A DNA stretch of 32,000 nt, taken from Candidatus Karelsulcia muelleri. GTDB lineage: Bacteria > Bacteroidota > Bacteroidia > Flavobacteriales > Blattabacteriaceae. The notes beneath the pieces were generated by a model. It was not told the DNA's origin and searched no databases. It saw only the letters and a program-made list of their open reading frames with translations. Both the position numbers and the translations under genes were made by a program. Position 1 is the stretch's first letter, and every line of letters begins with the position of its first letter. The stretch lies in NCBI RefSeq assembly GCF_022985615.1, contig NZ_CP094965.1, forward strand, positions 90,001 to 122,000, read 5' to 3'. Positions 2,887 to 21,899 of this stretch are shown in pieces.

Positions 2887-3020
2887 CCTAAGATAGATGG
2901 TACCATGGTACACTGGTACCCTGGTACCCTAAGATAGATGGTATTGTATGGTCCCGTCCCATTGTATATGGTACACTACACGAGGTACACTACACAACTA
3001 ACTAACTAACTAACTAAGAT
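2887..3020. repeat. GGTACC-core repeat patch plus an (AACT)5 microsatellite abutting tRNA-Phe
   Basis: cctaagatagatggta occurs at 2887-2902 and 2928-2943. ggtaccatggtacactggtaccctggtaccc follows, ggtacactacac occurs twice, and aactaactaactaactaacta runs from about 2996 to 3017. Confidence 0.85.
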
Positions 3021-3024
3021 GGTA

Positions 3025-3096
3025 TGGTACCTCCTGGAATTGAACCAGGGCCTAACGGATTTTCAGTCCGTTGCTCTACCTCTGAGCTAAGATACC
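3025..3096 (-). tRNA. tRNA-Phe (anticodon GAA)
   Basis: The reverse complement folds as acceptor ggtatct/aggtacc, D arm tagctcagaggtagagc, anticodon loop ctGAAaa, T arm cctgg-ttcaatt-ccagg, discriminator A. No encoded CCA. Confidence 0.9.
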
Positions 3097-11493: not shown

Positions 11494-11559
11494 TTTAATA
11501 AAATTTATTTACAAATTAAAAAAAAATATAGATAATATTTTAATTTCACCTTCATATTT

Positions 11560-11915
11560 TCTATTGAATATTTTATATTGAATATTTTCTATTGATCTTG
11601 GAAAATTTGTAAAAACGAATATTTTCTATTGATCTTGGAAAATTGGTAAAAACCAGGAAACATAGGAGCTAGCTATTTTATATGAGCTAGCTATTTTATA
11701 TGAGCTAGCTATTTTATATGAGCTAGCTATTTTATATGAGCTATTAAGAACTGCACTGCATCAGCTATTTTAAGAACTGCATCAGCTAGCTATTTAACTG
11801 CATCAGCTATTGGGGTTGATGCAGTGTTTTTCTGTGATGAAAAGATAGACTTATGATAGACATAGACTTAGATAGACTTACTTAGATAGATAGACTTAGA
11901 TAGACTTACTTATGA
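11560..11915. repeat. Composite tandem-repeat spacer downstream of leuB
   Basis: 37-bp unit x2 (11580-11616 and 11617-11653). 18-bp gagctagctattttatat x4 (11666-11737). aactgcatcagct variants (11748-11812). cttagatagactta-type units (11846-11915). Confidence 0.9.
11797..11831 (+). terminator. Hairpin plus T-run, a possible intrinsic terminator
   Basis: actgcatca (11797-11805) pairs with tgatgcagt (11817-11825) across an 11-nt loop. It is followed by g then ttttt. It sits about 300 nt after the leuB stop, so the assignment is tentative. Confidence 0.35.
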
Positions 11916-11940
11916 AAGACTTATATAATCCTAAGCCTCT

Positions 11941-12048
11941 GATATTATTCAAATTCCAATAAAAAATAAATATATAGATTCTCTAAATGTTAGTAATGCT
12001 ACTGCTATTATACTTTTTGAAATATATCGCCAAAAATGTTTTACTTAC
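11941..12048 (+). pseudogene. C-terminal relic of a SpoU/TrmH-family RNA 2'-O-methyltransferase
   Basis: My translation in frame 1 gives DIIQIPIKNKYIDSLNVSNATAIILFEIYRQKCF...*. This matches the SPOUT motif-3 pattern (IPM..x.SLNVS.AaaI.lyE). The same frame has stops at 11887, 11926 and 11932, and upstream sequence is repeat arrays. Confidence 0.6.
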
Positions 12049-12100
12049 TTACTTAAAAAACAGTTAGTTTTTGTATTTACTTAAAAAACAGTTTTTGTAT
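12049..12100. repeat. Duplication straddling the rnpA stop codon
   Basis: ttacttaaaaaacagttagtttttgtat (12049-12076) is followed by ttacttaaaaaacagtttttgtat (12077-12100). The second copy starts exactly at the rnpA stop. Confidence 0.85.
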
Positions 12101-12469: not shown

Positions 12470-12510
12470 GTTTTCTATTTTTATTCTTATTATAATTCTA
12501 ATAATTATTA

Positions 12511-12787
12511 GTAGAAGTAGACAAGTAGCACTTAAGTAGCAGTAGCAATTAATTATAAGTAGCAGTAGCAATTAATTAAAGTATTATTCTTCTACTTATG
12601 AGATATAGTATTTTAAGCCTAGATAGAAAAAAAAGTGTCTTAAGAAATTATTTGGTAGCTGGTAGTTGAAGAGTGTTATGTTATGAAGAGTGTTATGTTA
12701 TGAAGAGTGTTAATTTTGGAATTTTGGAATTGAGAGAGACAAGACAACAGAGAGAGACAGACAGACAACAGAGACAACAGACAACAT
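12511..12787. repeat. Repeat-filled rnpA/prfB divergent spacer
   Basis: 24-bp period taagtagcagtagcaattaatta x2 (about 12532-12579). tggtagc/tggtagt. 17-bp gaagagtgttatgttat x2.6 (12668-12712). attttgga x2. A 55-nt T-free A/G/C tract of gaga/caga/caac units (12732-12786). Confidence 0.9.
12598..12669 (+). pseudogene. Possible relic of the prfB 5' leader (pre-frameshift segment)
   Basis: A 23-codon ORF MRYSILSLDRKKSVLRNYLVAGS* ends in TGA. The ...VLRNYL resembles the ...LRGYL that precedes the +1 frameshift site of canonical prfB. It lies in frame 1 and the main prfB ORF in frame 2, the geometry expected for a +1 shift. Confidence 0.4.
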
Positions 12788-12802
12788 TGAGAGACTGATC
12801 TT

Positions 12803-16355: not shown

Positions 16356-16429
16356 GGTGTGATAGCTTAATTGGTAAGAGTATCGGATTCATAATCCGAA
16401 GGTCGAGGGTTCAAATCCCTCTCACACCA
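16356..16429 (+). tRNA. tRNA with CAT anticodon (elongator Met or lysidine-dependent Ile2)
   Basis: Acceptor ggtgtga/tcacacc, anticodon stem tcgga/tccga with loop ttCATaa, T arm gaggg-ttcaaat-ccctc. G1-C72 is paired, so it is not an initiator. Confidence 0.85.
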
Positions 16430-16692
16430 CTAAAAATAAAAATGAATAGCCAATGTGTTGTGTTGTGTTAGGAAATAATGTTGGTCATTTGGAGATTATT
16501 TTATGTTACAATTTTTCAAGGCTTGGCTTTTTTCAAGGGAATAAAGAAGATAATCTTTTGACAGTGACTATTGGAAGAAAAGGAAGAAAAAAAATAGATG
16601 AGAGTTTTTTGATAAAAAACATAATTTTTGGTAAAAACTTGGTCAAAACATCCTTTAGAGATAGAATTATGGAATATAGTTTTTATTCAATC

Positions 16693-16766
16693 AGATGGTA
16701 CCTTAGATGGTACCTTAGATGGTACCTTACATGGTACCTTACATGGTACCTTAGATGGTACCTTAG
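16693..16766. repeat. (AGATGGTACCTT)6 12-bp array
   Basis: Six contiguous 12-mers. Units 4-5 read acatggtacctt. Each carries GGTACC. Confidence 0.95.
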
Positions 16767-16806
16767 TTAAATTACCTACTTTGGAATGCCTACTTTTGAA
16801 TGGGTT

Positions 16807-16998
16807 GCTGATCTTGCTGATCTTATCTTATCTGATCTTGCTGATCTTATCTTATCTGATCTTGCTGATCTTATCTTATCTTGCTTATCATCTTGCTTAT
16901 CTGATCTTGCTGATCTTATCTTATCTTATCTTGCTTATCTGATCTGATCTATCTGATCTGATCTATCTGATCTGATCTTGCTGATCTTATCATCTTGC
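16807..16998. repeat. GATC-dense composite array (gctgatctt / atcttatct / gatctgatctatct)
   Basis: I count about 15 GATC tetramers in about 190 nt. The top strand is pyrimidine-rich. Confidence 0.9.
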
Positions 16999-17051
16999 AA
17001 AAAATATACTATTTGCTACTTTAGCTCAAAATACTAATAAAGTATATGGAG

Positions 17052-17330
17052 TCACAAGTAGATAAGTAGATATAATATCACAAGTAGATAAGTAAGTAGA
17101 TATAATATAATATCACATCACAAGTAGATACAAGTAAAGTAAAGTATCACAAGTATCACAAGTAAACAAGTATCACAAGTATCACAAGTAAAGTAAAGTA
17201 TCACAAGTATCACAAGTAAACAAGTAAACAAGTAAACAAGTAAACAAGTAAACAAGTAAACAAGTAAACAAGTAAACAAGTAAACAAGTAAACAAGTAAA
17301 GTAAAGTAAAGTAAAGTAGATATAATAGCA
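17052..17330. repeat. cacaagta-family arrays, including (CAAGTAAA)11
   Basis: caagtaaa x11 at 17213-17300. Flanked by gtaaa x3, tatcacaag units and cacaagtagataagtagatataatat copies. Confidence 0.9.
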
Positions 17331-17363
17331 GATCAGTAGTTTTCGCAATATATGATGGTATAA

Positions 17364-17452
17364 TTCCTTAAGGAAGAACCTTAAGGAAGAAGAACCTAAG
17401 AACCTTAAGGAAGAAGAACCTTCCTTAAGGAAGAAGAACCCTTCAAGAAGAG
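17364..17452. repeat. CCTTAAGG-core array (ccttaaggaagaagaa units)
   Basis: Five imperfect units, most carrying the palindrome ccttaagg. Confidence 0.85.
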
Positions 17453-17522
17453 AATAATCCTAATAGACTATATAAGCTATCATATAATAATAAAAAAAAT
17501 AGGAATCTGTAATTCTAAAAAT

Positions 17523-17697
17523 ATTAAGAATAGGAATAGGAAACTCTTAGGAGTAGATGTTAAAAATCTTAATATTAATATTAAGAATAGGAATAGGAAA
17601 CTCTTAGGAGTAGATGTTAAAAATCTTAATATTAATATTAAATGTTAAAAATCTTAATATTAATATTAAATGTTAAAAATCTTAATATTAATATTAA
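17523..17697. repeat. 57-bp unit x2 followed by a 28-bp unit x3
   Basis: attaagaataggaataggaaactcttaggagtagatgttaaaaatcttaatattaat at 17523 and 17580. atgttaaaaatcttaatattaatattaa at 17614, 17642 and 17670. Confidence 0.9.
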
Positions 17698-17990
17698 GAA
17701 TAAGAATCTTAATATTAATATTAAGAATAAGAATAAGAATAAGAATAAGAATAAGAATCTTAATATTAATATTAAGAATAAGAATAAGAATAAGAATAAG
17801 AATAAGAATCTTAATATTAATATTAAGAATAAGAATAAGAATAAGAATAAGAATAAGAATCTTAATATTAATATTAAGAATAAGAATAAGAATAAGAATA
17901 AGAATCTTAATATTAATATTAAGAATAAGAATAAGAATCTTAATATTAATATTAAGAAAATAAGAATAAGAATAAGAATAAGTTTAATAT
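17568..17990. repeat. Array of about ten copies of an 18-nt perfect palindrome separated by variable (AATAAG)n
   Basis: cttaatattaatattaag equals its own reverse complement; first copy 17568-17585, last 17939-17956. Hexamer spacer lengths are roughly 1.5, 5.5, 5.5, 5.5, 4.5 and 2.5 units. Confidence 0.9.
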
Positions 17991-17996
17991 TAAATT

Positions 17997-18225
17997 AGTA
18001 ATAGGAATAGTAATAGGAATAGTAATAGGAATAGTAATAGGAATAGTAATAGGAATAGTAATAGGATTAGTAATAGGAATAGGATTAGTAATAGGAATAG
18101 GATTAGTAATAGGAATAGGATTAGTAATAGGAATAGGAATAATATAGGAATAGGAATAGGAATAGAATAATAGTTAGTAATAGGAATAGGATTAGTAATT
18201 AGTAAGTAGGAATAAATATAGTAGG
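17997..18225. repeat. (AGTAATAGGAAT)n 12-bp array grading into an 18-bp aggattagtaataggaat variant
   Basis: Read directly: about 6 copies of the 12-mer, then about 4 copies of the 18-mer, then degenerate units. Confidence 0.9.
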
Positions 18226-18235
18226 AAATTAGAGT

Positions 18236-18650
18236 ATCAGTATTATAGTATAGAGGATATATAATATGATAATACTATATATGATAGTATAATATATACT
18301 AATAGGATAGGATAATATGAGATAGTATCATAGATATCATATGATAGTATCCTATCATATGATAGTCTAATATGAGTATACTAATACTAATAGGATAGGA
18401 TAATATGAGATAGTATCATAGATATCATATGATAGTATCCTATCATATGATAGTCTAATATGAGTATACTAATACTAATAGGATAGGATAATATGAGATA
18501 GTATCATAGATATCATATGATAGTACTATCATATGATAGTCTAATATGAGGATACTAAGAGAAGATACCTTAAGAGTTGATGATGAGATAGTATCATAGA
18601 TATAGAAGATCATAGTTGATAGTTAAAGATAAGATATCATAGAAGAGAAT
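18236..18650. repeat. 88-bp minisatellite (about 3.3 near-identical copies) with degenerate flanks
   Basis: aataggataggataatatgagatagtatcatagatatcatatgatagtatcctatcatatgatagtctaatatgag... recurs at 18301, 18389 and 18477. The unit contains the palindromes atcatatgat and ctatcatatgatag. Confidence 0.9.
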
Positions 18651-18693
18651 TGAGTATACTTATTGGCAGAAGATTTCAAATTCTTTTTGTTTA

Positions 18694-19152
18694 TCATAAG
18701 ATCTCATTAGGATTGAGCTTTTTGTGGAGTTTAAATCTTTTTTGGCTAAAAGGTTCTCTCTGATCGGATTTATTTTTACTTTTGGCTAAATGTATTACTA
18801 ATTTTATTAATCCTTTTTTATTAAGAAAAATCTTTTCAGGGATAATGTTTAACGAAAATTTTTTAACAGCTTCTGAAATTTTTATAATTTCTTTTTTTTT
18901 TAAAAGAAGTAAAATTTTACGATCTGTGGAATTTTTATTTTGATTATTATAACTTGACAGTTGCTTGATATAGAAATTGAAAAGAAAAATTTCTTTTTTT
19001 AAGACTTTGCAAAAGCTATTATTTAAATTAGCATTATTATTTTTAATAGATTTTACTTCGTGTCCTAATAATTTTAATCCGGCTATATATTTTTCGAGAA
19101 ATATAAAATTATATAAAGCCTTTTTATTTTTTAGATTAACATTTCTGAACAT
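18694..19152 (-). CDS. smpB: SsrA-binding protein SmpB
   Basis: 152 aa. NKKALYNFIFLEKYIAGLKLLGHEVKSIK matches the SmpB N-terminal consensus (NkkA.h.Y.i.e..eAGi.L.G.EVKS.R). Confidence 0.85.
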   Translation of the reverse strand: MFRNVNLKNKKALYNFIFLEKYIAGLKLLGHEVKSIKNNNANLNNSFCKVLKKEIFLFNFYIKQLSSYNNQNKNSTDRKILLLLKKKEIIKISEAVKKFSLNIIPEKIFLNKKGLIKLVIHLAKSKNKSDQREPFSQKRFKLHKKLNPNEIL

Positions 19153-19259: not shown

Positions 19260-19670
19260 ATGGAGATAATTGGGACAGTAAAAAAAATCTTAGACTTGCA
19301 GGTCTATAAAAACAATTTTAAAAAAAGAGAACTTCTTATCAAAACTGAAGAACAATATCCTCAAATTTTAATAATAGAATTTATTCTTGATAAAACTAAA
19401 TTATTAAATTCATTGAAAAAAGATGACAAAATAAAGATATTTATTAATTTAAAAGGAAAAAAATGGACTACTAAAACAGGTGAAACAAGATTTTTCAATT
19501 CGATTCAAGGCTGGAAAATAGAAAACATTACAGAAAAGAAAAAAAAAGAAAAAAAAGAAAAAAAAGAAAAAAAAGAAAAAAAAGAAAAAAAAGAAAAAGA
19601 AGAAAAAAAAGAAAAAAAAGAAAAAGAAGAAAAAAAAGAAAAGAATGAATTTGATGAATTACCTTTTTAG
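19260..19670 (+). CDS. DUF3127-type OB-fold SSB-like protein with a (KKE)n linker and acidic LPF tip
   Basis: 136 aa. MEIIGTVKKIL...EEQYPQ...FNSIQGWKIE resembles the Bacteroidetes DUF3127 pattern (MEI.GK....E.QYPK...W..). The C-terminus NEFDELPF resembles the SSB tip DDDLPF. Confidence 0.7.
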   Translation: MEIIGTVKKILDLQVYKNNFKKRELLIKTEEQYPQILIIEFILDKTKLLNSLKKDDKIKIFINLKGKKWTTKTGETRFFNSIQGWKIENITEKKKKEKKEKKEKKEKKEKKEKEEKKEKKEKEEKKEKNEFDELPF

Positions 19671-20161
19671 GTAACCTAATTACCTTTTTAGGTACCTTAG
19701 GTACCAAGGTACCTTTTACCAAGGTACCTTTTACCAAGGTACCAAGGTACCAAGGTACTACCAAGGTACTACCAAGGTACTACCAAGGTACTAACTACCA
19801 AGGTACTACCAAGGTACTACCAAGGTACTACCAAGGTACTAACTACCAAGGTACTAACTACCAAGGTACTAACTACCAAGGTACTACCAAGGTACTACCT
19901 ACCAAGGTACTACCAAGGTACCTTTTACCAAGGTACTACCAAGGTACTACCAAGGTACCTTTTAAGGTAGGTACCAAGGTACCTTTTAAGGTAGGTACCA
20001 AGGTACCTTTTAAGGTAGGTACCAAGGTACCTTTTAAGGTAGGTACCAAGGTACCTTTTAAGGTAGGTACCAAGGTACCTTTTAAGGTAGGTACCAAGGT
20101 ACCTTTTAAGGTAGGTACCTTTTAAGGTAGGTACCAAGGTACCTTTTAAGGTAGGTACCTT

Positions 20162-20165
<4 letters not shown>
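19657..20165. repeat. GGTACC/GGTACT minisatellite block starting inside the stop region of the ssb-like gene
   Basis: aattacctttttaggta x2 (19657-19673 and 19678-19694). 11-bp ccaaggtacta units with 15-bp variants (about 19744-19935). 24-bp ccaaggtaccttttaaggtaggta x7 or more (about 19946-20160). Confidence 0.95.

Positions 20166-21899
<1,734 letters not shown>

What the first reader, a model, noticed from the sequence alone, without database searches (positions are those of the whole stretch)
16430..18693. 2.2-kb gene-free spacer built entirely from at least eight distinct tandem-repeat arrays
Elsewhere in the window genes overlap or sit less than about 130 nt apart, which fits a deletion-biased, reduced symbiont genome. 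Between tRNA(CAT) and smpB lie about 2.26 kb with no recognisable coding remnant. Almost all of it from 16693 onward resolves into back-to-back arrays. Unit sizes are 12, roughly 9-24 (composite), 8, about 16, 57, 28, 18+6n, 12/18 and 88 bp. Copies within an array are identical or nearly so, which implies recent or ongoing expansion, or homogenisation. Adjacent arrays share k-mers (aataggaat, cttaatattaat), as if one array spawns the next. Retaining and expanding non-coding DNA in such a genome is unexpected. It points to a replication-slippage or template-switch regime with weak repair, or to a function such as origin, terminus, nucleoid organisation or a structured RNA.
Basis: partly seen in the sequence, partly recalled or inferred. 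Interest (0 to 1): 0.85.

Follow-up and report, generated by a model that had tools for sequence, protein, structure and literature searches.

The report
Decayed alaS gene overgrown by repeats
The 2.26-kb "empty" stretch in this insect-symbiont genome is the wreck of a lost alanyl-tRNA synthetase gene whose leftover pieces have been copied head-to-tail many times, so a dead gene has grown instead of shrinking in a bacterium known for genome stability.

Summary

The interpretation needs correcting. The window is Sulcia (Karelsulcia) muelleri from a Pyrops planthopper. More distant planthopper Sulcia carry alaS exactly between smpB and tRNA-Met. The window's spacer holds about ten collinear alaS relics (E down to 1e-19; none in shuffles). 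The arrays are local multiplications of alaS sequence. For example, array 1 is the codons D-G-T-L repeated six times.

Relatives outside Pyrops have reduced this pseudogene to 38-509 bp. The three Pyrops strains have inflated it to 1.5-2.26 kb, which is longer than the intact gene interval (1.34 kb). The tRNA-proximal half is identical between strains. The smpB-proximal half differs by hundreds of bp at only 0.4% neutral divergence, and in this strain it has damaged the smpB tail.

Two other spots in the window behave the same way, one of them a second dead gene. The best explanation is neutral tandem duplication by replication slippage in unselected DNA, resembling Portiera of whiteflies. An origin, terminus or RNA role is not supported.

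The parts
16356..16430 (+). tRNA-Met (CAT), left boundary
   Evidence: ARAGORN; Rfam 77.6 bits
16431..16692 (+). Non-repetitive alaS pseudogene block: relics of alaS codons ~95-217 with internal deletions, frame shifts and stop codons
   Evidence: blastn to intact Sulcia alaS of L088/L089: nt 283-304, 371-412, 475-502 and 603-649 map to 16482-16691 at 89-96%. Conserved in all three Pyrops strains and deleted in L001. The ORF 16453-16770 is spurious: it has no homologues.
16693..16766 (+). Array 1: AGATGGTACCTT x6.2, a multiplication of the alaS codons GAT GGT ACC TTA (D-G-T-L)
   Evidence: TRF. alaS 'FFRKSDGTLVKLPT' versus the relic 'SDGTL DGTL DGTL HGTL HGTL DGTL VKLPT'. The AGAT/ACAT variant order is identical in L083 and L084.
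16767..16804 (+). alaS relic linker (codons ~225-240, VKLPTF..GMGF) containing a 14-bp x2 duplication
   Evidence: alaS nt 663-692 maps to 16753-16782 at 90%; TRF 16775-16802; matches the L001 skeleton at positions 57-93
16805..16991 (+). Array 2: composite CTGATCTTGCTGATCTTATCTTAT (period 24/14/9/5, ~7.8 copies)
   Evidence: TRF. A single-copy seed 'gatctgatcttgctgatct' is present in L001. L083 has the same 184-bp array apart from a 5-bp shift.
16992..17064 (+). alaS relic linker (codons ~265-276, ..IAQ.T...YGVT)
   Evidence: alaS nt 794-828 maps to 17022-17056; L001 positions 93-144 map to 17007-17064 at 90%; weak PF01411 hit for the conceptual translation, E=0.006
17056..17320 (+). Array complex 3: ACAAGTAA x18, a 28-bp unit x3.8, and AAGTA x5, seeded on 'gtcacaagtagata'
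   Evidence: TRF; a single-copy seed is present in L001; L083 has one 8-bp unit fewer; L084 has a different derivative (TACTT x22 and 19/37-bp units)
17314..17369 (+). alaS relic linker (codons 285-304; RSVVFAIYDGIIP versus intact RSVVFAISDGIIP)
   Evidence: alaS nt 853-910 maps to 17322-17369 at 92-95%, E=2e-12 to 4e-14; also conserved in L001 and L002
17366..17451 (+). Array 4: AAGAACCTTAAGGAAG-type units (13/24/20 bp) around the palindrome TTCCTTAAGGAA, seeded on the alaS codons IPSKNK
   Evidence: TRF; palindromes. Its length differs in every strain: 67-86 bp in WIN, ~107 bp in L083, and 164 bp in L084 (32 bp x5.0, 100% match).
17446..17491 (.). Displaced copy of the ancestral spacer end plus the old smpB stop and last codons ('agaagagaata..ctaatagactatataagcta|tcatataata')
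   Evidence: In L084 and L001 this sequence abuts the smpB stop codon. In WIN it lies 1.2 kb from smpB.
17506..17549 (+). alaS relic (codons 310-324, KSGYVIRKILRR), lying inside the first 57-mer copy. It is the seed of the palindrome and AAGAAT arrays.
   Evidence: alaS nt 930-971 maps to 17508-17549 at 79%. The intact gene reads 'aaaaatcttaagaagaataata' where WIN reads 'aaaaatcttaatattaatattaagaataagaata'.
17520..17724 (+). Arrays 5-6: 57-bp unit x3.3, then its 28-bp sub-unit x4
   Evidence: TRF. L083 has a different derivative (31-bp x2.9 and TAACATC x13); L084 has none.
17695..17975 (+). Array 7: higher-order unit made of the 20-bp perfect palindrome TCTTAATATTAATATTAAGA plus (AATAAG)n. Palindrome spacings are 27, 51, 51, 51, 45 and 33 bp, that is 21+6n.
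   Evidence: TRF 51-bp x4.9 at 93% match; palindrome positions; inverted repeats; specific to WIN
17994..18199 (+). Array 8: ATTAGTAATAGGAATAGG, 18 bp x11.5 (with 12-bp sub-units)
   Evidence: TRF. L083 has CTATTA/TAATAG x16.5 at the homologous place; L084 has only ~4 copies.
18260..18558 (+). Array 9: 88-bp unit x3.4 containing the palindromes CTATCATATGATAG and TATCATATGATA
   Evidence: TRF score 511; palindromes. L083 has 70/43-bp units and L084 has 17/59-bp units built from the same motifs.
18559..18667 (+). Degenerate, partly repetitive tail that includes a second partial copy of the ancestral spacer end ('gatatcatagaagagaat')
   Evidence: L001 positions 191-215 map to 18628-18655
18668..18688 (-). 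Relic of the ancestral smpB C-terminal codons (KKEFEIF), now lying after the stop codon
   Evidence: DNA alignment with L083, L084 and L001; protein alignment
18694..19152 (-). smpB, right boundary. Its last ~20 codons (18694-18753) are a WIN-specific replacement unrelated to the conserved tail.
   Evidence: NCBIfam SmpB, 118 bits, just under the cut-off of 130; alignments A2
11554..11923 (+). Sister phenomenon: arrays (14, 37, 18, 21 and 10/14/28 bp units) built from fragments of a dead SpoU-family methylase gene between leuB and rnpA
   Evidence: The gene is present in L001 and L084. In WIN and L083 it carries two large deletions, and the surviving fragments are tandemly multiplied.
19534..20300 (.). 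Sister phenomenon: AAAAGAAAA x12 inside the DUF3127 tail; GGTACC-bearing arrays (11/24/26/48 bp) between DUF3127 and groEL; 18-, 16- and 15-bp duplications running into the groEL 3' end
   Evidence: TRF. The gap is 103/117 bp in L002/L001, then 299, 449 and 568 bp in L084, L083 and WIN. The seed is one partial copy in L002 and three copies of 'aggtaccta' in L001.

Best explanation
The interval is the remains of alaS (alanyl-tRNA synthetase), on the + strand and convergent with smpB. The gene was lost in the Fulgoridae/Dictyopharidae branch of planthopper Sulcia. In most of those lineages the dead gene has been whittled down to 38-509 bp. In the Pyrops lineage the surviving fragments were repeatedly duplicated head-to-tail in place, in units of 5-88 bp and often around short palindromes. 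The pseudogene is now 1.5-2.26 kb, longer than the intact gene interval.

The proposed process is replication slippage or short-range template switching in DNA that is under no selection. Point substitution stays very slow, so copies remain nearly identical. The arrays have no function.

Shown: the pseudogene identity, the in-situ origin of the arrays, the lineage specificity, and the turnover by unit-sized indels. Inferred: slippage as the enzymatic cause, that slipped loops of 5 nt or more escape MutS-type repair, and that replisome decay (holA is a pseudogene in two of the three strains) contributes.
For: 1. Source. SmpB is 100% identical to UOQ38182.1 on a 156,326-bp Karelsulcia genome. 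The strains were identified from the supplement of Deng et al. 2023.
2. Intact alaS (PF01411, E=2.7e-142) sits between smpB and tRNA-Met in L088 and L089. The paper lists alaS as lost in Pyrops and Dictyopharidae Sulcia.
3. About ten collinear alaS relics lie on the + strand, with E down to 1e-19. Twenty shuffled controls gave no hits.
4. Each of arrays 1-7 starts on a sequence that is single-copy in alaS and/or in the 244-bp spacer of L001.
5. Spacer length by strain: 38 (L086), 244 (L001), 452 (L002), 509 (L087), 1340 with intact alaS (L088), and 1506, 1846 and 2263 in the three Pyrops strains.
6. The tree from 4-fold sites is (((WIN,L083) 0.39%, L084) 1.1%, L001) 3.6%, L002 ~15%. So the expansion is a derived Pyrops trait.
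7. Between WIN and L083 the left 930 bp has 0 substitutions and 4 indels, all of unit size (9, 5, 5 and 8 bp). The right halves are 1354, 954 and 552 bp long.
8. The same process acts on a second pseudogene (SpoU methylase) and on a convergent intergenic hairpin.
9. Tandem-repeat load of the syntenic ~18-20 kb is 15.2, 12.2 and 9.3% in Pyrops against 3.3 and 2.5% in the outgroups. All arrays have a period of 5 or more.
10. [quoted passage not shown]
Against: - No read-level data were available here, so slippage, length heteroplasmy and the exact copy numbers are unverified. The assemblies are Nanopore (N50 3-5 kb) polished with Illumina.
- The trigger is unknown. Arrays are already present in P. 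clavatus Sulcia, which keeps holA, so holA loss cannot be the initial cause.
- The mutS, dnaQ and recA status of these strains could not be checked.
- Arrays 8-9 and the last 130 bp cannot be traced to alaS with confidence.
- GGTACC-bearing units occur at three separate places (37 sites against 1.1 expected). Pure local slippage does not obviously predict that.
- The tRNA-proximal 560 bp shows 1 substitution between WIN and L084 where about 6 are expected at the 4-fold-site rate. It is compatible with the all-site rate of 0.38%, which predicts about 2.
Confidence: 0.85

Rival explanations
1. The arrays are a functional cis-element, such as a replication origin or terminus, nucleoid-organising or host-protein binding sites, or a structured RNA, that was recruited in a genome lacking dnaA.
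For: - The left ~900 bp, including arrays 1-3, is perfectly conserved between WIN and L083 and nearly so in L084.
- Units are rich in perfect palindromes of 12-28 bp.
- There is strong strand asymmetry, with GC skew up to 0.64.
- Sulcia replication initiation is not understood.
Against: - The arrays are absent from L001, L002, L086 and L087, which share the gene order.
- The conservation is no more than expected at 0.1-0.4% overall divergence.
- The right half differs completely between strains.
- Equivalent arrays occur at two or more other places in 32 kb.
- There is no Rfam match at E<=1. Fold z-scores are -1.15 and +0.43.
- There is no promoter excess: 26 sites against 24±5 in shuffles.
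Confidence: 0.05
2. The arrays are an assembly or polishing artefact, that is, long-read mis-assembly of a low-complexity AT-rich region.
For: - The assemblies are Canu Nanopore with medaka and Pilon polishing.
- WIN-specific features rest on a single assembly: the 51-bp higher-order array, the 88-mer x3.4, and the rearranged smpB tail.
Against: - Three independent assemblies from three host species give the same array order. Arrays 1-3 are base-for-base the same, including the internal variants.
- The authors report even long- and short-read coverage without breaks.
- The array seeds exist as single copies in the outgroups.
- Short-read fragmentation is itself what real repeats would produce.
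Confidence: 0.05
3. The arrays are maintained or expanded by selection as spacer DNA, for example to separate the convergent transcription units tRNA-Met and smpB, or groEL and DUF3127, and so limit read-through or collisions.
For: All three expanded gaps are convergent (3'-3') junctions. Divergent and co-directional gaps keep the same length to within a few bp across the five genomes. The second hotspot grows out of a terminator-like palindrome, TTAGGTACCTAA.
Against: The same pattern follows from simple tolerance, because insertions at 3'-3' junctions do not separate promoters from genes. Relatives function with gaps of 38-117 bp. In WIN the growth has damaged the smpB tail, and in WIN and L083 it accompanies the loss of a gene.
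Confidence: 0.05

Closest known systems
Portiera aleyrodidarum of Bemisia tabaci (Sloan & Moran 2013, PMC3673631; Santos-Garcia et al. 2020, PMC7821994)
   Same: It is an ancient obligate insect endosymbiont in which one lineage, unlike its relatives, shows enlarged intergenic regions filled with tandem repeats, no deletion bias, indels that are repeat-unit changes, and loss of replication and repair genes.
   Different: - Portiera BT repeats are mostly 7-bp microsatellites spread genome-wide, with 69% coding density. They are accompanied by a raised substitution rate, dnaQ loss, large identical repeats and rearrangements.
- Here the units are 5-88 bp with higher-order structure, concentrated in a few hotspots.
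- Substitution stays extremely slow (0 in 930 bp), gene order is intact in the 20 kb compared, and dnaQ status is unknown.
Hypervariable microsatellites and the 72/79-bp tandem repeat in leafhopper Sulcia-MSEV and Nasuia-MSEV (Waneka et al. 2020, PMC7952229)
   Same: It is the same bacterial genus. [quoted passage not shown]
   Different: There the loci are four small ones (about 54-141 bp, one of them a 6-bp microsatellite at 67046-67105) in a 190-kb genome. Here nested arrays of kilobase scale occupy 15% of a 20-kb region and are built on pseudogene DNA.
Classical bacterial pseudogene decay under deletion bias (Mira, Ochman & Moran 2001; from my own knowledge, also cited in PMC3673631)
   Same: It starts the same way: a gene made redundant (alaS, SpoU methylase) accumulates stops, frameshifts and internal deletions. 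The sister lineages L001, L002, L086 and L087 follow the textbook path down to 38-509 bp.
   Different: In Pyrops Sulcia the net length change is positive: 2263 bp against 1340 bp for the intact interval.
Tandem-repeat (VNTR) fields of animal mitochondrial control regions (from my own knowledge)
   Same: These are organelle-like, recombination-poor genomes in which slippage around hairpin-forming sequence builds species-specific, length-variable arrays in the main non-coding region.
   Different: The control region is functional (origin and promoters). Here the substrate is a dead gene and no function is indicated.

Membership tests
alaS pseudogene | Lies at the position occupied by intact alaS in relatives with the same flanking genes | tested here: met
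   L088 and L089 have the order smpB - alaS - tRNA-Met. The window has smpB - 2.26 kb - tRNA-Met.
alaS pseudogene | Collinear sequence similarity to the intact gene on the expected strand, above chance | tested here: met
   10-11 collinear plus/plus HSPs with E from 1e-5 to 1e-19; 0 hits in 20 shuffles. Weak PF01411 hit of one conceptual fragment, E=0.006, below the gathering score.
alaS pseudogene | Reading frame destroyed by stops, frameshifts or deletions | tested here: met
   The tblastn alignments carry stop codons, frame changes between blocks, and large gaps.
alaS pseudogene | No intact alaS elsewhere in the genome | not testable with these tools
   Only 32 kb of the genome is available. 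Deng et al. 2023 report alaS as lost in Pyrops Sulcia.
Slippage-generated tandem repeats (micro/minisatellites) | Head-to-tail copies far above chance | tested here: met
   TRF coverage of 1531 bp against 13 bp in shuffles
Slippage-generated tandem repeats (micro/minisatellites) | Differences between close relatives are gains or losses of whole units | tested here: met
   WIN versus L083: 4 of 4 indels are of unit size, with 0 substitutions. Copy numbers differ for arrays 4-9.
Slippage-generated tandem repeats (micro/minisatellites) | Length polymorphism within populations or hosts | not testable with these tools
   No reads are available.
Portiera-BT-type genome instability | Lineage-specific enlargement of non-coding regions by tandem repeats | tested here: met
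Portiera-BT-type genome instability | Accelerated nucleotide substitution | tested here: not met
   4-fold-site divergence is 0.4-1.1% among the three strains, and there are 0 substitutions in 930 bp of pseudogene. There is no sign of acceleration, although no rate test against the outgroup branch was run.
Portiera-BT-type genome instability | Loss of dnaQ and other replication and repair genes | not testable with these tools
   Only the holA pseudogenisation in two of the three strains is known, from the paper. The supplements held no gene table.
Portiera-BT-type genome instability | Gene-order rearrangements or structural polymorphism mediated by repeats | tested here: inconclusive
   Gene order is identical over 17 genes in five genomes. 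There is one local rearrangement at the smpB 3' end in WIN.
CRISPR array | Repeats separated by unique spacers of similar length, with cas genes nearby | tested here: not met
   Units are contiguous and the neighbours are housekeeping genes.
Known structured RNA (Rfam) | Covariance-model match, or thermodynamic signal above shuffles | tested here: not met
   Only the two tRNAs match at E<=1. Fold z-scores are -1.15 and +0.43 for the unique block.
Chromosomal replication origin | Element conserved at the same place in related genomes | tested here: not met
   The arrays are absent in L001, L002, L086 and L087. DnaA boxes are irrelevant because Sulcia lacks dnaA (my own knowledge). A whole-genome skew analysis was not possible.

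The most novel reading that the evidence does not exclude
Pyrops Sulcia may have switched from the deletion-biased, static mode typical of Sulcia to a net-insertion mode, in which any DNA released from selection inflates by tandem duplication while point mutation stays almost frozen. The switch might have been triggered by decay of the replisome (holA and possibly other factors). If so, array lengths should be heteroplasmic within single insects, and these strains would be a natural experiment that separates slippage rate from substitution rate in an organelle-like genome. A further possibility, not excluded, is that some of the palindrome-bearing arrays have been co-opted as binding sites for imported host replication proteins.
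Probability: 0.3. Interest if true: 0.7.

Novelty: new member of a known kind. Interest (0 to 1): 0.5.

Why it matters
Sulcia is the textbook case of endosymbiont genome stasis, and bacterial pseudogenes are expected to shrink. Here a dead gene has become longer than the live one, and it changes by hundreds of base pairs between strains that differ by only 0.4% at neutral sites. This shows that indel and substitution processes can be uncoupled.

The source paper calls these genomes 'gene-dense' and does not discuss the arrays. There are also practical points:
- The arrays explain why short-read assemblies of these genomes break.
- They are ready-made hypervariable markers for host and symbiont population studies.
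- They can damage neighbouring genes (the smpB tail; in-frame insertions in groEL and DUF3127).
- They give a testable link to the loss of replisome parts such as holA.

Tried and rejected
- **Exact-sequence look-ups of the window's own SmpB.** The source genome is not indexed. Relatives were reached through cluster members instead.
- **ORFs inside the spacer.** Pfam found nothing for 16453-16770, 16628-16942, 17642-17998 or 17670-17963. A full HMMER scan of 1.8 billion representatives with the 79-aa unique part gave one marginal hit to a 2052-aa protein matched in six stretches (E=1.5e-4). These are spurious frames; the true relic frames are the alaS ones.
- **The 236-bp block as a duplication.** No source was found in the window or in any locus outside Pyrops, and no exact match in the metagenome collection. 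It was later explained as alaS codons ~95-217.
- **tmRNA or another RNA next to smpB.** ARAGORN and Rfam were both negative.
- **Pfam on a stitched conceptual translation of relic block A.** No hit, because it is too degraded.
- **mutS, mutL, dnaQ, recA and holA tables in the paper supplements.** Nothing was held.
- **CRISPR, origin and structured-RNA readings.** All rejected; see the membership tests.
Full report
**Observation**

The interval 16431-18693 (2263 bp) lies between tRNA-Met(CAT) at 16356-16430 (+) and smpB at 18694-19152 (-). Tandem Repeats Finder reports arrays with periods 12, 24/14/9/5, 8 and 28, 13/24/20, 57, 28, 51 (with an embedded 6-mer), 18 and 88.

At score >=50 the arrays cover 67.7% of the interval and 82% of 16693-18558. 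Shuffled sequence gives about 13 bp. So the arrays are real and far beyond chance.

- The interval is not built entirely of arrays. The first 262 bp, the last ~135 bp and five linkers are unique sequence.
- It is not the only large gap in the window. leuB-rnpA (583 bp, 57% arrays) and 19534-20300 (93% arrays) are of the same kind.
- It is not free of coding remnants, as shown below.

**Source**

The flanking genes are leuA/C/D/B, rnpA, prfB, obg, lpdA, smpB, a DUF3127 gene, groEL/ES, miaB and sufBCDS. GC content is about 24%.

SmpB is identical to UOQ38182.1 of Candidatus Karelsulcia (Sulcia) muelleri, on a 156,326-bp genome. Two sister genomes were fetched:
- CP094964 (L083) is Sulcia-PYRLAN from Pyrops lathburii.
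- CP094963 (L084) is Sulcia-PYRCLA from P. clavatus.

By elimination the window is Sulcia-PYRVIR from P. viridirostris, CP094965.

The source paper (Deng et al. 2023, PMC10333215) calls these genomes gene-dense. It says nothing about the arrays beyond noting that Sulcia was fragmented in short-read assemblies and closed only with Nanopore reads.

**Comparative anatomy**

Eleven genes (12 kb) give these 4-fold-site divergences from the window:

| Genome | Divergence |
|---|---|
| L083 | 0.39% |
| L084 | 1.1% |
| L001 (GCA_053764315.1) | 3.6% |
| L002 | ~15% |

Gene order is identical, and most gaps agree to within a few bp. Three gaps stand out:

| Gap | L001 | L002 | L084 | L083 | WIN |
|---|---|---|---|---|---|
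| lpdA-smpB (bp) | 517 | 715 | 1779 | 2119 | 2500 |
| DUF3127-groEL (bp) | 117 | 103 | 299 | 449 | 568 |

The third gap, leuB-rnpA, holds a SpoU-family methylase gene in L001 and L084. In L083 and WIN it holds arrays instead.

Tandem-repeat load of the syntenic region is 15.2% (WIN), 12.2% (L083) and 9.3% (L084), against 3.3% (L001) and 2.5% (L002). The expansion is therefore a derived trait of the Pyrops lineage.

**What used to be here**

In two more distant planthopper Sulcia (L088, 159.7 kb; L089, 158.6 kb) a 432-437-codon alaS lies exactly between smpB and tRNA-Met. It matches PF01411 with E=2.7e-142. The paper lists alaS among the synthetase genes lost in Pyrops and Dictyopharidae Sulcia.

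Aligning intact alaS to the window's interval gives about ten collinear matches on the + strand:

| alaS nt | Window coordinates |
|---|---|
| 283-304 | 16482-16503 |
| 371-412 | 16500-16558 |
| 475-502 | 16608-16635 |
| 603-649 | 16645-16691 |
| 663-692 | 16753-16782 |
| 794-828 | 17022-17056 |
| 853-910 | 17322-17369 |
| 930-971 | 17508-17549 |

Identities are 79-96% and E-values reach 1e-19. Twenty shuffled queries gave no hits. The protein-level alignments carry stops and frame changes.

The spacers of L002 and L087 keep other pieces of alaS (nt 9-90, ~790-950 and 1108-1278). L001 keeps only a short piece, and L086 has 38 bp left. The interval is thus an alaS pseudogene.

**Origin of the arrays**

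Every array that can be traced starts from a sequence that is single-copy in alaS and/or in the 244-bp 'skeleton' spacer of L001.
- **Array 1.** It is the alaS codons GAT GGT ACC TTA multiplied. The intact gene reads ..FIQFFRKSDGTLVKLPT.. and the relic reads ..FIQ SDGTL DGTL DGTL HGTL HGTL DGTL VKLPT...
- **Array 2.** It grows from 'gatcttgctgatct'.
- **Array 3.** It grows from 'gtcacaagtagata'.
- **Array 4.** It grows from the IPSKNK codons around CCTTAAGG.
- **Palindrome and AAGAAT arrays.** They grow from 'aaaaatcttaagaagaataata' (KILRRII), by internal duplication inside the natural CTTAAG palindrome.

This explains why neighbouring arrays share k-mers. Many unit cores are perfect palindromes: a 20-bp one recurs 8 times, and others are 12-28 bp.

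The same process is visible 5 kb away. In WIN and L083 the dead SpoU methylase gene has two large deletions, and its surviving fragments are multiplied. For example, 'ggagctatttt' became (ATATGAGCTAGCTATTTT)x4.6 in WIN, but a 13-bp unit x4.8 in L083. 'gatagactta' became a ~7-copy array in WIN only.

The DUF3127-groEL hotspot grows from a terminator-like palindrome. There is one partial copy in L002, three copies in L001, and dozens in Pyrops.

**Tempo**

Between WIN and L083 the tRNA-proximal 930 bp shows 0 substitutions and 4 indels of 9, 5, 5 and 8 bp, all whole repeat units. Arrays 1-2 also keep the same internal variant order in L084. So these arrays were inherited from the Pyrops ancestor. 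They look 'young' only because Sulcia substitutes so slowly.

The smpB-proximal part is 1354 bp in WIN, 954 bp in L083 and 552 bp in L084. Each has different units made from the same motifs. Turnover there is fast relative to substitution.

Net change is growth. The interval with intact alaS is 1340 bp, against 2263 bp in the window.

**Collateral damage**
- **smpB.** The last ~20 residues of WIN SmpB are unrelated to the tail conserved in all relatives. A relic of the old tail codons (KKEFEIF) lies just beyond the new stop, at 18668-18688. The old junction of spacer end and smpB stop lies at ~17470-17489, 1.2 kb away. This implies a duplication and deletion event specific to this strain, or a local assembly error.
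- **groEL.** It carries a 15-bp in-frame tandem duplication in all three Pyrops strains, giving 548 aa against 543 aa.
- **DUF3127.** Its tail is lengthened by AAAAGAAAA x12.

**Mechanism**

Shown:
- The arrays originate in situ from unselected DNA.
- Change proceeds by unit-sized indels.
- The trait is specific to the Pyrops lineage.
- Growth is confined to places where insertions are harmless: two pseudogenes and 3'-3' junctions. Divergent and co-directional gaps are unchanged.

Inferred:
- The cause is replication slippage or short-range template switching, probably helped by hairpin-forming palindromes.
- Slipped loops of 5 nt or more escape MutS-type repair. All arrays have a period of 5 or more. 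In a leafhopper Sulcia, indels are almost all repeat-unit changes, 1-bp indels are rare and mutS is retained (PMC7952229).
- Replisome decay may contribute. holA is a pseudogene in the two strains with the heaviest repeat load and intact in P. clavatus Sulcia. That is a single contrast, and the arrays predate it.

**Rivals**
- **Function (origin, terminus, nucleoid, RNA).** The arrays are absent from relatives outside Pyrops. The right half is not conserved. Similar arrays occur elsewhere in the window. There is no Rfam hit, no fold signal and no promoter excess.
- **Assembly artefact.** Three independent assemblies agree, and the authors checked read coverage. Exact copy numbers and WIN-only features remain unverified.
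- **Selected spacer DNA.** Relatives manage with gaps of 38-117 bp, and the growth has damaged neighbouring genes.

**Comparison and verdict**

The closest known case is Portiera of Bemisia tabaci. It shows lineage-specific intergenic enlargement by tandem repeats, no deletion bias, and loss of replication and repair genes (PMC3673631). This case differs in several ways:
- Units are larger and nested.
- The arrays sit in a few hotspots rather than genome-wide.
- Gene order is intact.
- There is no sign of faster substitution.

It is a new member of a known kind, found in the bacterium usually cited for genome stasis. Interest is moderate at 0.5.

Noticed in passing
window 18694-18753 (-), 18668-18688 and 17470-17491: The SmpB of this strain has a C-terminal ~20 aa (REPFSQKRFKLHKKLNPNEIL) unrelated to the tail conserved in six relatives (RELIKKKEFEIFSKRK...). 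Relics of the old tail codons and of the old stop lie on either side of 1.2 kb of arrays. The SmpB tail is needed for trans-translation (my own knowledge), so smpB may be impaired here, or this end of the assembly may be wrong.
   Followed up: partly
window 11494-12076; L084:16314-17120; L001:15024-15830: A SpoU-family methylase gene between leuB and rnpA is present in L001 and in P. clavatus Sulcia, where it is called as two ORFs of 148-150 and 97 aa. It is destroyed in the window and in P. lathburii Sulcia, and its fragments are turned into arrays. The main text of the source paper does not list this difference.
   Followed up: yes
window 20263-20298 (groEL 3' end) and 20162-20238: A 15-bp in-frame tandem duplication (ATTTTCAGGAAGATT x2.4) lengthens GroEL to 548 aa in all three Pyrops strains, against 543 aa in L001. 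Perfect 18-bp and 16-bp duplications lie at and just past the gene's 3' end.
   Followed up: partly
window 19534-19642 (DUF3127 gene 19260-19670): AAAAGAAAA x12 lies inside the 3' end of the DUF3127 gene and gives a long lysine/glutamate-rich tail: 136 aa, against 116 aa in L001 and 106 aa in L002. L083 and L084 have 10 and 9 copies.
   Followed up: partly
window 2898-3030, 16693-16766 and 19690-20164: GGTACC occurs 37 times in the window, where base composition predicts 1.1. Nearly all copies are in arrays at three separate places. The site at 2898-3030 lies just downstream of tRNA-Phe, whose 3' end itself reads GGTACCA, and it shares 'agatggtacc' with array 1. Whether this reflects independent seeds or template switching between sites is unresolved.
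   Followed up: partly
L085 (CP138191.1, 117,708 bp): A Sulcia genome of only 118 kb has smpB in a different context (dnaN - smpB - proS). So this neighbourhood has been rearranged in at least one lineage.
   Followed up: no
window 12502-12795: Several short arrays (23, 17, 8 and 17-20 bp units) lie in the divergent gap between rnpA and prfB, and may overlap the diverged 5' part of prfB. Pyrops rnpA is also more variable than its neighbours: 83-95% aa identity, against 96-100% for adjacent genes.
   Followed up: no
window 16453-16770 and 16628-16942; L083:11818-12132; L084:11441-11767: The spacer contains ORFs of about 104-108 aa. The gene calls on record for the two sister genomes include an ORF here with no Pfam family, corresponding to 16628-16942. 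These ORFs run through arrays and out-of-frame alaS relics, so they are almost certainly spurious.
   Followed up: yes
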